Made by a program: the position numbers and the translations under genes. A stretch of DNA of 64,000 bases from Heptranchias perlo (lineage: Eukaryota), in the NCBI RefSeq assembly GCF_035084215.1, contig NC_090356.1:10292001-10356000 (forward strand), in the 5' to 3' direction. Positions 14,091-54,900 of the stretch are shown here, piece by piece. The stretch's first letter is position 1. Each line of letters begins with the position of its first letter. The notes under the pieces were generated by a model. The model was not told the DNA's origin. It did no database searches and worked only from the letters and a program-made list of their open reading frames with translations.

Positions 14091-14386
14091 ATCTTTCTGT
14101 GATGACCTTATGGGGCTATGCACATGTCCCCAATGATTTAAAAGACCTTGCAACCACCTTTACAGATCTTGGCTGAATATGAAGCGTTAAGTGATTAGGA
14201 ATTCTAAATACTGGTTTCTTTCTGCTGACACTTGATTTCTCTCCTTTTTGGTTCTGAGTGTGTAAAACCAAGAATTTTAAAAAACTATAGTGGTGACTGC
14301 TCACATAAGACAACAGTCATCATGCAATAAGCTATCTGCCGAAGGCATCAAATTAAGACTCTGTATAGACAGCCATAATATAGATA

Positions 14387-14629
14387 TGATGTGGAGATGC
14401 CGGTGATGGACTGGGGTTGACAATTGTAAACAATTTTACAACACCAAGTTATAGTCCAGCAATTTTATTTTAAATTCACAAGCTTTCGGAGGCTTCCCCC
14501 TTCATCAGGTGATAGAACTAAATAGAACTGCTTCACATCGTTCACCTGACGAAGGGGGAAGCCTCCGAAAGCTTGTGAATTTAAAATAAAATTGCTGGAC
14601 TATAACTTGGTGTTGTAAAATTGTTTACA
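14387..14629. mobile_element. Palindromic Penelope-like element insertion #4 with short templated loop
   Basis: 12-bp TSD ATAATATAGATA at 14375-14386 and 14630-14641; tail on the left. The loop contains AACTAAATAGAACTGCT, identical to 15203-15219. Confidence 0.92.
14541..14579 (+). ncRNA. Minimal hammerhead motif; mirror copy on the minus strand in the left arm
   Basis: Same motif as insertion #1. The minus-strand copy has CUGAUGA and is clipped by one base at the outer end of stem I. Confidence 0.72.
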
Positions 14630-15289
14630 ATAATATAGATACGCTTTGCCCCATTTGGAGCCCATCAGCTATAGTAAACTGAAATCAAACTTAGGAACTA
14701 TATCTTTCGAGGCAAAGCCTGAACCATTTGGTCATTTATTGGAGGGCTACGTTTTTCACTCAGGGAGACAGTTATTCCAATTAACAATGTTAGGTTCCTT
14801 CATTTAATCAGACAAATAGTCTGTGGTTAGAGGATCTGCCTGGAAATATAAGCGATCAGAGTGCAGTTTCAACTACATGGAGCTAATGAGCACCAAACAG
14901 CAAGAAACACAAGCAGGACTTTTGTGTGTACACAGATGTATATTCATGCAGCATCTGCCAAGTGTTCTTTACACAAAGAAACATTTCTCAATATGTCAAA
15001 AAATACATTTTGAAAATATATATGTCCCGTGTGCAACATTTGGGCACTTATGCAATGTTGACATGTACTCAAACTTATTTTCTGGTGATACACTGCTAAT
15101 CAATCGACCATCACAAGTTCACATCATAATTGTTAAACCTCAGCAGCTTAGAGAATCCTGGTCAATAACAATAATGGACTTCCATTTCTAGCAATAAAAG
15201 TAAACTAAATAGAACTGCTCCACATTGGGCTATTGTTTAAAAGATTAGATCCGATTTTTCCAATGGCTTAATGACATTATTCAGAAAGT

Positions 15290-48780: not shown

Positions 48781-51446
48781 CCAGGAGACTTGATGAGATA
48801 GTCCATTTCATGCTAAAACCCATCCTCTATAAAACTGAAGAGATGCAGGCGGGCCTGTCAGGCTGCTGCAAGAATGTGACGAGAACAGCATCACAAGACC
48901 TTCTTGTGCTTGAACCAGATCTCTGTGTTTTTGCCAGGAGCACAACAGCTGACATGTCTTCACCTCAACATTCTGAATCAATCCAAAGCCCACGGATAGT
49001 CCTAACTGTTAATTGTATCCATATGATTTATATCAATTAGTGTTAATTGTATTTAGGTGGTGCATATCAATTAGGGAACTCTCCTATCCATTTGCAAGAG
49101 AGCTTACCGAGGGTGTGATGTGGGTAATGTGGATCTCTGTGAATAAAGGATTAGAAGCCACTGAAGATCAGGCTCTAGTATTCTATCCTTCACCACCAAT
49201 TTATTACACTAACACCCAGAATTCCAAACCTTACCAGCAGAAATGTAAATGCAGAGATCGTTTGCTGGACCATGGTTGCATTTGGCCTGGACAAATCTAT
49301 GATTTACCCACCAATACTCCAATTTAATTTAACCCAACTCTTTGTGGTTCCAGGAACCACCAGAGTCAGATTCATAAGGTATCTGTCCTGGTTATGGTTA
49401 TCGCCAGCTCCACCCTGTTATCCCACCGAGTAAAAAAAAACAGAGTTCTCAGAATAACCAGCTGAGCCAATGCCATATTTATGAATTTTATAGAGTGAGA
49501 GGAGAAACCTTATGACCGAGATGTGTTTTTGATCGTCTAGTCAGGTGCACAAGTTAAATTAAACCCAGAAGAGTCAGTGGTCAAACAAATGAAACCATTT
49601 GAGCAAGATTTATTGTTTATATTGAAAGCACTTCAGTTTTGACATTTTTCTTCAATTGGTACAGTACTAAAGAGTCTAAGGAGCATGCAACTTGAAGCTG
49701 GTTTTAAAATTGGTTAGTACAGAATCACAGGATAAAATTACACAGACTAATTATAGTTCCTGGAATTTGTTGAATTACAGTATTCGAATTGTACCACTTG
49801 GACCTGAACTACATCATCATAAAAGAACCAGCCCTGTTCAGCAAAACAACATCATCCAATAATCACAAAAATGGTTTAAACAGAAGAGATCTTCTGCGTA
49901 GGCTTGTGTTATTACCAAAATAAAATGTGAGCATGACATGCTTAAATACCATATTAGCTACACTAAAGAATAGCTTCATTATGTTAACCCCTGGGGTATC
50001 TTAACTGTAGAGCAGACTTCATCCAAACCTTAAATTACAAAAACCAATGAATAAAACCAAACAAGAGTATTCTTGTTTGCAGCAATGTGATGTACGACAT
50101 CTTGTATGGCTAGATGACATCTTATCTGCGTTATGCGATTAAATATTTTCAGTCTTTTGATATTTCTGACATTTTAATGGTTTGGTGGGCTGAGCCGAAA
50201 AGGACGGGAACATGACTGAACTGCAAATATGTTTCTATTTTACATTTCAAATAGCACAGAAAACTGAAGATTTAGGTGCTAATGAATGGGAATGTGTGCA
50301 TTTTAAATACACCAGAGACAATTCCAGCATGCAGCAAAACAGTAGAGTGAAACAGATCCTGTGAGTGGAAGTCTAGACATACACACATTGGTCTATTATT
50401 AGAATGATGCATGTATTCATTTTTCTTTGACAAAATATATTTTTGTTATCATTCATTATTTGGTTTACTTCACTGTGGTGACAGTTGAGTCATAGAATGG
50501 AAGTTTCTGTTGCAAGATCAAATCAAGCATTTACTGTGGGGTTTTAAACATTTTACAATTATATACATATACATTTTATAATGCTATAATAATTATGCTA
50601 ACCAATAGCCTAATTTTAAATTAGTAGCCAAACAAACAATCTAAAGCAACTGTCGTCCTTTCCTAATGATTGTCTCACCTCTTTCCCAACAAAAGAGGCA
50701 ATCTACCTATATTAAAAGTGTAGTGTGTAACGCACACTTCTTGTAGGTGTCACACTCACTCAAACACTTTTCCAATTACTCTTTGTTCATTTGATGGAGC
50801 AGCATTCAACTTATTCCATCACTGTAAATCAGTAGTCCTGATAATACATTGTGCATTACATAGCACAACATCCCTGTTGTTACAAAACTGTGTATCCTCC
50901 AACTCACCATGAATGATTGTAAACAATTTTACAACACCAAGTTATAGTCCAACGATTTTATTTGAAATCTACAAGCTTTCGGAGGCTTCCTCCTTCCTCA
51001 GGTAAATGCGAGGAACTCCTCGAAGCCTACGCATTTATAAATCACAGAACAATACATGGTGATTACAGACAGCCTTTGCAACTGCCTGTTGCCAAGGCAA
51101 TCACCGTGTTCAGACAGAGAGGTGTTACCTACAGAACCCCCGAATATACATTCAACAAAAAAAACAAACAGGAAAAAAAAAAGAGAGAGAGAGAGGCAGA
51201 AACATCCGGAAGGCAGAGAAAGCCAGCAAATGACCCGTTAGATTCAAAACAGATAGCTTTTGTTCGCTGGTGGGCTTACGTGTAGCGTGACATGAACCCA
51301 AGATCCCGGTTGAGGCCGTCCTCATGGGTGCGGAACTTGGCTATCAATTTCTGCTCGACGATTTTGCGTTGTCGTGTATCTCGAAGGCCGCCTTGGAGTA
51401 CACTTACCCGAAGGTCGTGGCTGAATGTCCCTGACTGCTGAAGGAT

Positions 51447-51596
51447 TCAGCCACCGACCTTCGGGTAAGCGTACTCCAAGGCGGCCTTCGAGACACACGA
51501 CAACGTAAAATCATCGAGCAGAAATTGATAGCCAAGTTCCGCACCCATGAGGACGGCCTCAACCGGGATCTTGGGTTCATGTCACGCTACACGTAA
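51447..51596 (+). pseudogene. C-terminal fragment of PLE ORF (GIY-YIG endonuclease end)
   Basis: Hand translation SATDLRVSVLQGGLRDTRQRKIIEQKLIAKFRTHEDGLNRDLGFMSRYT*. The R..E..I..F.T...GLN.D pattern is typical of PLE GIY-YIG C-termini. A mirror copy at about 51276-51442 (-) adds FSSQGH and has a 1-nt deletion. Confidence 0.85.
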
Positions 51597-51861
51597 GCCC
51601 ACCAGCGAACAAAAGCTATCTGTTTTTAATATAACGGGTCATTTGCTGGCTTTCTCTGCCTTCCGGATGTTTCTGCCTCTCTCTCTCTGTTTTTTTTTTC
51701 CTGCTTTTTTTTGTTGAATGTATATTCGGGGGTTCTGTAGGTAACACCTCTCTGTCTGAACACGGTGATTGCCTTGGCAACGGGCAGTTGCAAAGGCTGT
51801 CTGTAATCACCATGTATTGTTCTGTGATTTATAAATGCGTAGGCTTCGAGGAGTTCCTGAC

Positions 51862-51902
51862 ATTTACCTGAAGAAGGAGGAAGCCTCCGAAAGCTTGTAG
51901 AT
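51862..51902 (+). ncRNA. Minimal hammerhead motif (variant subfamily); mirror copy near 50966-51006 (-)
   Basis: AUUUAC-CUGAAGA-A-GGAGG(AAG)CCUCC-GAAA-GCUU-GUAGAU. Stem I has a U-A pair where the other copies have C-G. Confidence 0.75.
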
Positions 51903-54900
51903 TTCAAATAAAATCGTTGGACTATAAGTTGGTGTTGTACAATTGTTTCCATTGTCAACCCCAGTCCATCACCGGCATCTCCACACCATGAATGATGCCA
52001 TTGGAGATCTGCTAGAAATTAGGGTGCCAGGAACCATTTTCAAACTGTGGAGAATTAGGATAGAAGATGCAGTGTGCTATTTATAAAATCAGTCCCCCTT
52101 ATATTTTAGAAAATTAGTCCCCTTTACAGTTGTGTGTAATTTCCTTTTATGGTACTTCTATTGCTCCAGAATACAAAAGATGAAAGGCTATTGATCTGAG
52201 GGGAGGCAGCACCCCAAGATCCTTTGCATGTTTTTGTTTGTTCCTCAAAAGGGAATAGTTAGTTATTCAGCATGACATGTTGAGAGAAAACATGTGGGCC
52301 ATGAAAAACATGTCTGCGGTTGCAGTGGACAGCTGCATCTGAAAATGCTGAAACTGTCTGACATAATTTGTGTTTTAGAAGTTGAAAAATGTTACTATGC
52401 ATGATTTACGTTTTCTTTCCCTGGGTATGAATAGGGTATGTTTGGCATTAGTAGTTTGTAGGATGAAAGTTTCCTAAGTGACAGAACTATTACCTACCTG
52501 TAGGGGCTTCTTCGTTCTATAAATTCAGGGGACCCCAAACGCTACGAGCGTACGCTGGCACAGACTTTCTGGGGCGAAATGCTACAGCGCAACCTTCCTT
52601 TGAGACTACGTGATTCCCCAGTCTGTATGAGAGGACCATGTCAATGTAACAGGTTTGTTTTAGTCAAAATAGTACTTGAAGAAAGAGAGCCCTTGAAAAG
52701 GCCTGAGTGGTCAGCCAGGTGGCAGTACAATGTAGGTTGCTTTCAATTCAAAGAATCAAGAACCTATCAAGAAGCTAACTCTTCTTTTTCTGAGCAGAGG
52801 TTCCATCCCTATGGCAGAACCTTATTGTCCAGCGCACTCTAATGTTGACGACATTGAATACCTAATTGATTGATTAGTAGCTCAGTGATATCTGTTCAGT
52901 TGTCAGTTGGATTTCAGCAACTTGTAATAGAGAACGTGTGAAATTTCTGTACTGTACTGAACTGCAAATAATTATCAAATATTGATTGTATTATTCTAAA
53001 TGTGGATTTTGTCTGAAGAGCCCATTTTTTACGCTACACAGTACCAAAGTGAAGCACTGGTGGCGGGACATTTTGAGTTGATGAATTGAAAACATCACAC
53101 CAGAGGAATAATGATACAACATTGAAGCATAATAGCTTCAGAATTGTTTCTTTACTAGCATATTGATACCAATACACTAAGTAAGCCAAGTGACAGTACT
53201 GCAGTAGATCATCCAATTCTCATGCTCACAGTTTTGCTCCAAGCTGCCCTCTGGAAATAGGAAGTCTCTGGGCAGAAATGTCAAGTAGGGTTGAGAAGGA
53301 ACACCAGCTCAGGATAGAAGGATAACAATGCTGATATAAACTTGTAAATAGAGGTGCTGATGGAGTCAAATCACCAGTCACTAGAACCTGGCATGGGTCA
53401 CAGATGTAACCTAAACACTCAAAGCTTTCTGAGCTGGACAAACCCAGAAATTGCAATGAGTGCACTGAAAACAGGCCCAAAGTGATGGGCAGATAGGAAG
53501 GGGCTTGAGAACAAGTCCTGGAATAAACATGCAGTAAAGATCTTATAATCCCTTCACTACTGCAGATTTTACACTCAAAGGAAATCTCCAGTGAAGTAAC
53601 CCAAATCCTCAAAAGTAAGATGCTCCAAATTACAAAAGTTCTAAAAGGGACCAACAGCCAACAGTAGAGTTGATGCAGAGTGAGACAAACAAGAGAACGT
53701 TCCATGAAGGTGACTAGCTGCAGCAATTGAGTGTTGTCTCTATACCGTCTCAATGCTGAGCAATGCCAGATGACAACTCACCTTATGTTGCTTCTTCAGT
53801 CCCTTAGCACTAGCTGGTACTGGGACAACCACCAGCCTCACATCAGTGTAAATGAACTGAAGCCAAAGCAAACAGAAGTCAAAAAATGGACTGGCAAAAA
53901 GATAAAAACAGTTCATTCCTATCCATACCACCAGGGCTGTAACCGCAGCATTACCACTCAAGGTCAGCTAATATTAAAAAGGCTCTGGGTGGCACCAGTT
54001 GAAGGTGACCTTGCGGCCAGCAGTATCTCTAAAGCCGGTGCTGTGTGGTTTTGGACCACCTTGATTGGTGCATGGCCAAATACAGTTCCTTTGTTTGTAC
54101 TCCTCTCTTGACTTAAGGGCCCAAGATGCATGCATGATTACTCTAAAATCTTACTCGTAACTTTCCTATTTTTGCTGTAAACCTTCACTGATGTCAGAAG
54201 ATCTCTACAGGCAAACAATGTTTAAATCTCAGAGCTCAGCCGGAATAAATGACCAATAATACATTTGGGCATCCTTTGCCACTCACAGCATTATGCCTCG
54301 GAAAGCATTCTGCCTCAAGAAGGCAGGGAACCTCCTTTCAAGGCATGCACACCTTCTCTGAAGGCCGCAGCATTGTAATATAAGTGGGGTATCAGGAGAC
54401 ATCACGTCACAACAGAAAAGGATGAATAGTTTAAACCCAGGCAAGGTGAATCAGCTTTGAGTTTTCCACTTTTCACTATTCCTGAGCTTTTCATTTTGTC
54501 TTGGAATTTCCATTTACCATTACTAGTAGCAATTTGTGCTTACCAGTGCTACTTTTTGCTGTGCTTCACTACATAATGGGTATATTTTCAAAAAATAGAG
54601 GCGATGATGATGCTAGACCAGGATTGAAATAGCAACAGCATTACAATAAACAATATATGGTTTCATTAAGCTATACCATTGTAACCACTTGCAAGGCATT
54701 TGATTTCTCAATCAATTGGGAGGTTTTCTATATTAAAAGGTGCTACATAAATGAAAGCTGTTGCAACTAATATTTAAAAATAAGATTTATTCTGAACTTC
54801 GTTCGGTGTGCACAGTGGCAGCTTTCAAACTGGAACTCATTTAATTTCAGTACAATGTGCGTAATCTGTCAAAGTTTTAGATTAGAAGTCATGGCCCGTA

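What the first reader, a model, noticed from the sequence alone, without database searches (positions are those of the whole stretch)
14375..15225. Second local-DNA capture in PLE #4, with the same polarity as #2
Seen in sequence: the loop of #4 has about 20 nt of non-element sequence, (A)TAGAACTAAATAGAACTGCT. Positions 14516-14532 match 15203-15219 exactly (17 bp, about 570 bp away), and the preceding ATAGAACT repeats 15209-15216, which looks like two rounds of copying from one donor. The donor continues CCACAT, close to the element's TCACAT where the junction resolves. Element #4 is flipped relative to #2 (tail on the left) and its donor is on the right. In both cases the donor lies on the tail-less short-arm side and in direct orientation. 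Inference: capture is tied to the integration mechanism, and the stuttered copy resembles polymerase-theta templated insertions. With only two cases the polarity could be chance.
Basis: partly seen in the sequence, partly recalled or inferred. Interest (0 to 1): 0.75.

Follow-up and report, generated by a model that had tools for sequence, protein, structure and literature searches.

The report
Penelope insertions capture nearby host DNA
Some head-to-head Penelope retrotransposon insertions in this genome carry, at their centre, a copy of host DNA from a few hundred bases away, taken from either side and in either orientation (so the proposed one-sided rule is wrong), likely picked up while the two cDNA ends were being joined during integration.

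Summary
The 17-bp match is real (14516-14532 = 15203-15219; 0 of 3000 simulated and 0 of 270 other flanks reach it). The element is a head-to-head Penelope-like insertion with a one-sided tail and a 12-bp target-site duplication. The polarity claim fails. Of 86 further captures found with searches blind to tail and donor, only 24 are short-arm side and direct; side is 36:50 (p=0.16) and orientation 46:40 (p=0.59). The capture itself is general: 88 of 113 non-element loops have a local donor, against 76 of 6780 swapped-flank controls. An unselected sample gives about 4% of insertions (2 of 50). Donors lie far out (near end median 406 bp; 3 of 88 within 50 bp), unlike L1 or Pol-theta templated insertions. 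Microhomology favours the donor's far end (46/95 vs 21/79), and 9 inserts join both arms to a far end against 1 to near ends, which suggests copying runs toward the insertion site. Insert-donor divergence equals arm-arm divergence (0.54% vs 0.52%), consistent with capture at integration. The stutter in #4 rests on 3 bases; Pol theta is untested.

The parts
14375..14386 (.). Left copy of 12-bp target-site duplication
   Evidence: identical to 14630-14641
14387..14512 (-). Long (tailed) arm of element #4; the tail is about 14387-14422
   Evidence: 98.4% to window element #1 over 14388-14512; tail is 33-36 nt in 191 of 285 elements
14513..14532 (+). 20-nt non-element insert: 3 extra bases plus a 17-nt copy of the donor
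14533..14631 (+). Short (tail-less) arm of element #4
   Evidence: 99% to element #1 over 14532-14631
14630..14641 (.). Right copy of 12-bp target-site duplication
15203..15219 (+). Donor of the captured 17-mer, 571 bp from the short arm, direct
15221..15225 (+). 5-nt microhomology with the short-arm end (14534-14538), after one mismatch, at the donor's far end
   Evidence: read from the sequence
9270..9417 (+). 148-nt captured insert of element #2
   Evidence: 1 mismatch to 8830-8977
8830..8977 (+). Donor of the #2 insert, 194 bp from its short arm, direct
51456..51597 (+). C-terminal end of the element ORF in window element #6, used to identify the family
   Evidence: 89-98% identical to longer ORFs in L264, L132, L096, L282

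Best explanation
The insert is a copy of flanking host DNA at the central junction of a head-to-head Penelope-like insertion, with no rule for side or orientation, and was likely made during integration, when a free cDNA end probably primed by microhomology a few hundred bases out in either flank and copied toward the insertion site before the ends were joined. Shown: the captures, their sides, orientations, distances, junction microhomologies and intact duplications. Inferred, using the in vitro work of PMC11167929: both nicked strands prime reverse transcription, at the two start sites that bound the tail, giving two antisense cDNAs that cannot pair except at short palindromes. Most insertions close at such a palindrome. 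In roughly 4%, one cDNA end instead primes on the 5'-terminated strand of a flank (unwound, nicked or released during end processing), copies about 100 nt inward, and is resolved by further microhomology, slippage or fold-back. For #4 this would be the short-arm cDNA priming at 15221-15225, copying 17 nt toward the element and joining the tailed cDNA with 3 extra bases. The polymerase (Pol theta, Pol delta or the element's own RT) is not identified.
For: 88 of 113 non-element loops have a donor within 1.38 kb vs 76 of 6780 swapped-flank trials. All four side/orientation classes are filled, 24/12/22/28, stable under stricter filters. Duplication of 11-16 bp is intact in 81 of 88 events. Insert-donor divergence 47/8663 vs arm-arm 29/5602 at non-CpG sites, p=0.91. 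Microhomology of 2 nt or more at the donor's far end 46/95 vs near end 21/79, p=0.005; paired 50 vs 25, p=0.005. Both junctions at far ends in 9 events, at near ends in 1 (p=0.021). L072, L115 and L279 repeat a chimeric arm-plus-far-end junction on both arms, which fits fold-back on a strand begun at the far end. In the 2 events with donors on both flanks (L082, L235) the orientation flips across the element, as expected of a break-centred process. Arms end within 5 nt of each other in 203 of 285 elements.
Against: PMC7165422 reports that the final microhomology of Pol-theta insertions is usually the longer one (57% vs 16% over 1 bp), so the far-end excess also fits copying away from the break. 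Direction rests mainly on 10 complex events; L337 runs the other way and L276 uses both strands. Dropping one probably mis-assigned donor (L312) lowers insert-donor divergence to 0.35% vs 0.53% (p=0.14), so somewhat later capture is not excluded; per-locus divergences do not correlate (rho 0.04), though counts are tiny. 25 of 113 loops have no donor within 1.38 kb. No enzyme or intermediate was observed.
Confidence: 0.55

Rival explanations
1. Classical theta-type joining at integration: both flanks are resected, a cDNA end primes on an exposed 3' tail (own side gives inverted, opposite side gives direct), copies away from the break and then anneals to the other cDNA.
For: Gives all four classes. 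Longer microhomology at the far, then final, junction agrees with PMC7165422. L337, and the second segment of L276, copy outward. 7 of 52 short junction gaps are repeats of the insert (no chance control run).
Against: Predicts near-near double junctions; observed 1 vs 9 far-far. Published templates are typically within 30 bp and primary tracts rarely over 10 bp; here 3 of 88 donors start within 50 bp and the median tract is about 105 nt.
Confidence: 0.2
2. Capture after integration: the near-perfect palindrome extrudes or stalls a fork, breaks at its centre and is repaired with a locally templated patch.
For: 100-bp near-perfect arms are plausible fragile sites, and a centre break would expose the same 3' ends. 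Without L312, insert-donor divergence is a little below arm-arm, 0.35% vs 0.53%. PMC7999016 passages describe palindrome-associated insertions.
Against: The difference is not significant (p=0.14 without L312; 0.91 with it). Arms in capture events mostly end 13-22 nt past the anchor, at the same hotspot as other insertions, though my patterns selected for that.
Confidence: 0.15
3. The element RT jumps from its RNA to a nascent host transcript of the locus.
For: L198 holds 185 nt of RT-like element ORF in its loop with no donor within 4.7 kb, so jumps between templates can occur.
Against: One transcript would give the same orientation on both flanks; both two-flank events show opposite orientations. 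It does not explain the peak of far ends at 400-600 bp.
Confidence: 0.07
4. One reading: the donor is always on the tail-less side and direct.
For: True of #2 and #4. Among captures under 40 nt the class is the largest, 9 of 21.
Against: 24 of 86 (28%, CI 19-39%), not different from 25% (p=0.53); 62 counterexamples.
Confidence: 0.02
5. Chance match or assembly artefact at a hairpin.
For: No contig listed spans the loop itself, so the junction was not confirmed outside the assembly.
Against: Expectation 2e-6. Copies up to 303 nt recur at 88 loci with diverged bases. Contigs of three runs of the same sample join both flanks to the arms.
Confidence: 0.01

Closest known systems
Penelope/Poseidon-type PLE insertions with inverted pLTR and one-sided tail (PMC11167929, PMC3846280, PMC8557442)
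   Same: Head-to-head truncated copies, 33-36 nt tail at one end, target-site duplication, palindromic centre, C-terminal GIY-YIG ORF with two cysteines inside the motif.
   Different: The passages I read do not describe locally templated host DNA at the centre. PMC3846280 reports 0.9-1.5 kb host spacers in rotifer Pen1 without a local donor in those passages, and explains central palindromes by self-priming.
L1 templated insertions and twin priming (bioRxiv 10.1101/2024.08.27.596794; PMC11702581)
   Same: Duplication of nearby genomic DNA, mostly under 250-300 bp, inside a new insertion; two cDNAs joined by microhomology.
   Different: L1: 22 cases against 3,598 solo insertions, typically within 15 bp of the site (the authors note their pipeline did not target them). 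Here about 4% and a median of 406 bp, 1 of 88 within 15 bp.
Polymerase-theta templated insertions (PMC7165422)
   Same: Direct and inverted local copies, 2-6 nt microhomology, repeated rounds, slippage.
   Different: Templates there typically within 30 bp and primary tracts rarely over 10 bp; here hundreds of bp away and about 100 nt long, with apparent inward direction.
Templated and fold-back insertions at yeast breaks in RPA, Rad27 or Dna2 mutants (PMC11724301)
   Same: 50-300 bp copy-paste insertions, double inverted segments from one locus, fold-back synthesis then joining.
   Different: There the long donors come from across the genome and the local fold-backs are short; here donors cluster within 1 kb of a retroelement junction in a germline.

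Membership tests
Penelope-like element (C-terminal EN+) | [quoted passage not shown] | tested here: met
   L264 ORF shows the motif with both cysteines (criterion from PMC8557442). Atlas clusters at 0.96-0.97 carry PF01541 in 22-35% of members. Pfam itself gave no GIY-YIG hit and PDB none. The same 3' arm follows this ORF at 95-96% in L264 and L184.
Penelope-like element (C-terminal EN+) | Inverted 5'-truncated copy with a 30-40 bp tail at one end | tested here: met
   285 of 295 pairs have the tail on one side only; 33-36 nt in 191 of 285.
Penelope-like element (C-terminal EN+) | Target-site duplication | tested here: met
   12 bp in 143 and 13 bp in 68 of 285, chance extension included.
Penelope-like element (C-terminal EN+) | Hammerhead ribozyme motif in the pLTR | tested here: inconclusive
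   Core boxes recalled from memory are visible in both arms; Rfam gave no hammerhead hit, only generic hairpin models below gathering score.
Penelope-like element (C-terminal EN+) | RT grouping with PLE/telomerase RTs; clade assignment | not tested
   No full RT was fetched and no tree was built.
Pol-theta templated insertion | Direct or inverted copy of flanking DNA with junction microhomology | tested here: met
   Both orientations; gap-free junctions have a mean microhomology of 2.7 nt, n=91.
Pol-theta templated insertion | Template within about 30-50 bp of the break, short primary tract | tested here: not met
   3 of 88 within 50 bp of the element edge; median tract about 105 nt.
Pol-theta templated insertion | Dependence on POLQ | not testable with these tools
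   Needs de novo insertions in POLQ-null cells.
L1-type templated insertion | Donor within about 15 bp of the insertion site | tested here: not met
   1 of 88.

The most novel reading that the evidence does not exclude
Penelope integration passes through a break with two unpairable cDNA ends, and about 1 in 25 insertions records it by copying the 5'-terminated strand of a flank inward from 0.2-0.9 kb away. That would be a long-reach capture route distinct from theta-type templated insertion, leaving a germline fossil map of where end processing or looping reaches, and in vivo evidence for twin priming by PLEs.
Probability: 0.4. Interest if true: 0.75.

Novelty: new variant of a known kind. Interest (0 to 1): 0.5.

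Why it matters
How Penelope-like elements finish integration is open: PMC11167929 says the steps after priming are yet to be validated. These junction scars give a countable in vivo readout of that step in more than 2,000 insertions of one genome. They show the element duplicating 15-300 bp pieces of host DNA as it inserts. The reach and apparent inward direction differ from the L1 and Pol-theta signatures I read, and make clear predictions for cell-based insertion assays. The polarity that gave the finding its score is a two-case coincidence.

Tried and rejected
Polarity rule: rejected, also at 20 nt or more, 40 nt or more and clean-duplication filters. Side-by-orientation interaction: p=0.049 overall, 0.007 under 40 nt, 0.46 at 40 nt or more, uncorrected; kept only as a lead. 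Preference for repeat-derived or AT-rich donors: none (21 of 66 vs 25 of 66 mirror-side controls; GC 0.42 vs 0.43). Empty or alternative allele of #4: none among the joints shown, but 241 joints were not shown, the runs X1-X3 are one sample that may be the source, and no listed contig spans the loop; run X5 (share 0.05) held only an element arm and is no evidence. The loop is therefore unconfirmed by reads. Pfam and PDB did not identify the ORF; Rfam hits are generic hairpins. Tandem Repeats Finder showed nothing at the site. Earlier scan notes: none. Rows dropped: 11 loci with no parsed arm pair; 10 pairs with tail on neither or both sides and 62 duplicates; L291 skipped in the junction analysis; three donors beyond 1.38 kb (L281, L289, L292) not counted. 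11 matches were not listed and not examined.

Full report
OBSERVATION. The match is as described. 14516-14532 equals 15203-15219 and occurs only twice in the window; 14512-14519 equals 15209-15216; the donor continues CCACAT where the element reads TCACAT. Element #4 has its tailed arm at 14387-14512, a 20-nt insert, a tail-less arm at 14533-14631 and a 12-bp duplication at 14375-14386 / 14630-14641. The longest match of the insert was 12 nt in 3000 simulated flank sets and 12 nt in 270 real flank pairs of other elements; the analytic expectation of a 17-mer is 2e-6. Element #2 carries a 148-nt copy of 8830-8977 with one mismatch. The stutter is weak: only 14513-14515 lie outside the 17-mer and the arm, and a single added G explains them as well. 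Across the set, 7 of 52 junction gaps of 3-30 nt, #4 included, repeat part of the insert (no chance control), so slippage happens but is not proven here.

IDENTITY. Window element #6 ends in an ORF fragment that is 89-98% identical to longer ORFs in fetched loci. These show a GIY-YIG-type motif with two internal cysteines, the PLE hallmark given in PMC8557442, and match GIY-YIG-bearing Atlas clusters at 0.96-0.97. Pfam and PDB gave no hit. The arm sequence of #4 follows such ORFs at 95-96% in L264 and L184. Inverted copy, one-sided tail and duplication all fit a Penelope-like element. No RT tree was built.

GENOME-WIDE TEST. I searched the 3.25-Gb own genome with patterns anchored only on the two inner arm ends, so blind to tail and donor. 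I added the BLAST loci, 264 kb around the window and stretches picked from the listings by loop content alone. This set is enriched for odd loops and is not a frequency sample. Of 357 arm pairs, 295 were distinct and 285 had the tail on one side. 113 had 10 or more non-element bases in the loop, and 88 of these had an exact match of 15 nt or more within 1.38 kb that beat 60 swapped flanks (p<0.05); swapped flanks gave such a match in 76 of 6780 trials. Leaving out #2 and #4: short-side direct 24, short-side inverted 12, tail-side direct 22, tail-side inverted 28. Stricter filters give the same result. A weak interaction remains (Fisher 0.049, uncorrected): donors whose far end joins the short arm number 52 against 34 (p=0.066). 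Of the 25 loops without a donor, three have one further out and one is element ORF.

FREQUENCY. A pattern open to any gap up to 420 nt finds 2,244 elements; 2 of the first 50 in genome order carry a verified capture (CI 0.5-14%). The long loops among the 50 were fetched and are element-only; most short loops were judged from the listing. Most centres are short palindromes, and arms end within 5 nt of each other in 203 of 285 elements (partly imposed by the patterns).

GEOMETRY. Donor near ends have a median of 406 bp (10-90%: 111-773), far ends 514 bp with a peak at 400-600, tracts a median of about 105 nt and up to 303 nt. Only 3 of 88 start within 50 bp; the distribution is not uniform (p=3e-6). 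Of 49 candidate loops with over 4 kb of flank on both sides, 37 had the donor inside 1.38 kb. Microhomology of 2 nt or more sits at the far end in 46 of 95 junctions and at the near end in 21 of 79 (p=0.005), and extra bases are commoner at the near end (46 of 79 vs 37 of 95). In 87 parsed events both junctions are at far ends in 9 and at near ends in 1 (p=0.021). Several of the nine read simply as inward copying followed by fold-back on the new strand (L115, L277, L279, L311, L341), and in L277 and L314 successive segments step closer to the element. Against this: PMC7165422 finds the final microhomology is usually the longer, which lets the far end be the last junction; L337 copies outward; L276 uses both strands.

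TIMING. At non-CpG sites in 67 events, arm-arm divergence is 29/5602 and insert-donor divergence 47/8663 (p=0.91); 176 young elements without capture give 76/15128. Without the doubtful donor L312 the figures are 0.53% vs 0.35% (p=0.14). This fits capture at integration and does not exclude a somewhat later event. Contigs from the same sample join both flanks to the arms, but none listed spans the loop.

MECHANISM. PMC11167929 shows in vitro that a PLE protein nicks and extends both strands and starts at two sites that bound the tail. I infer two antisense cDNAs, one per arm, that can pair only at palindromes and must be end-joined. In a minority, one end primes on a flank. Inward copying means the template is the 5'-terminated strand, made available by unwinding, nicking or release during end processing, or by invasion of the looped duplex; my data do not separate these. 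The donor stays in place and the duplication is kept (11-16 bp in 81 of 88). I put this at 0.55, outward theta-type copying at 0.2, a later palindrome break at 0.15 and a jump to host RNA at 0.07.

COMPARISON AND NOVELTY. Templated insertions are known for L1 (22 cases, typically within 15 bp) and for Pol theta (typically within 30 bp); similar-sized copy-paste and fold-back insertions occur at yeast breaks. It works like these but fails their distance criterion, so I do not file it under either. Searches returned no paper whose listing, or whose passages where I read them, describes local capture at PLE centres. The library lacks most subscription papers and I read no supplements, so a description there is not excluded. 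What I saw: PMC11167929, parts 1-2 of 4 (abstract, main text, start of methods); PMC3846280, PMC8557442, PMC7165422, PMC11724301, PMC7999016, PMC11702581 and its later bioRxiv version, and bioRxiv 10.1101/2024.08.27.596794 as passages; PMC3280974 as abstract and outline; all others as listings only.

VERDICT. Observation confirmed; polarity refuted; capture real, recurrent and long-range. New variant of a known kind, interest 0.5.

Noticed in passing
L198:4903-5087 (minus strand): The loop is 185 nt of open, RT-like element ORF, 96% identical to L244:2812-2996, with no donor within 4.7 kb: a possible jump to an internal part of an element template.
   Followed up: partly
L266, L280, L290 loops: Loops made of 2-4 repeats of a short arm-plus-foreign unit, as if one end re-primed repeatedly; no local donor found.
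   Followed up: no
285 elements: Target-site duplication is sharply 12 bp (143 at 12, 68 at 13 with chance extension).
   Followed up: partly
window 14533 and most loci: Both arms usually stop at the same short A-run about 100 nt from the tail-less end and meet in a palindrome: a strong truncation hotspot just beyond the hammerhead-like motif.
   Followed up: partly
L004, L011, L029: Independent-looking insertions (different loops) whose flanks share the same host repeat at nearly the same position: possible target preference.
   Followed up: no
L013, L019, L067, L077, L148 and many others: Loops often hold short copies of the element's own arm, the element-templated counterpart of the flank captures.
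   Followed up: no
L243, L244, L256: Matching poly-A / poly-T runs extend both arms at the centre, suggesting slippage then fold-back.
   Followed up: no
window 50918-51990: Older head-to-head element with about 500-bp arms, 95-96% complementary, each holding the ORF C-terminus.
   Followed up: partly
window 6252-6412: Degenerate 27-nt tandem repeat, 5.9 copies.
   Followed up: no
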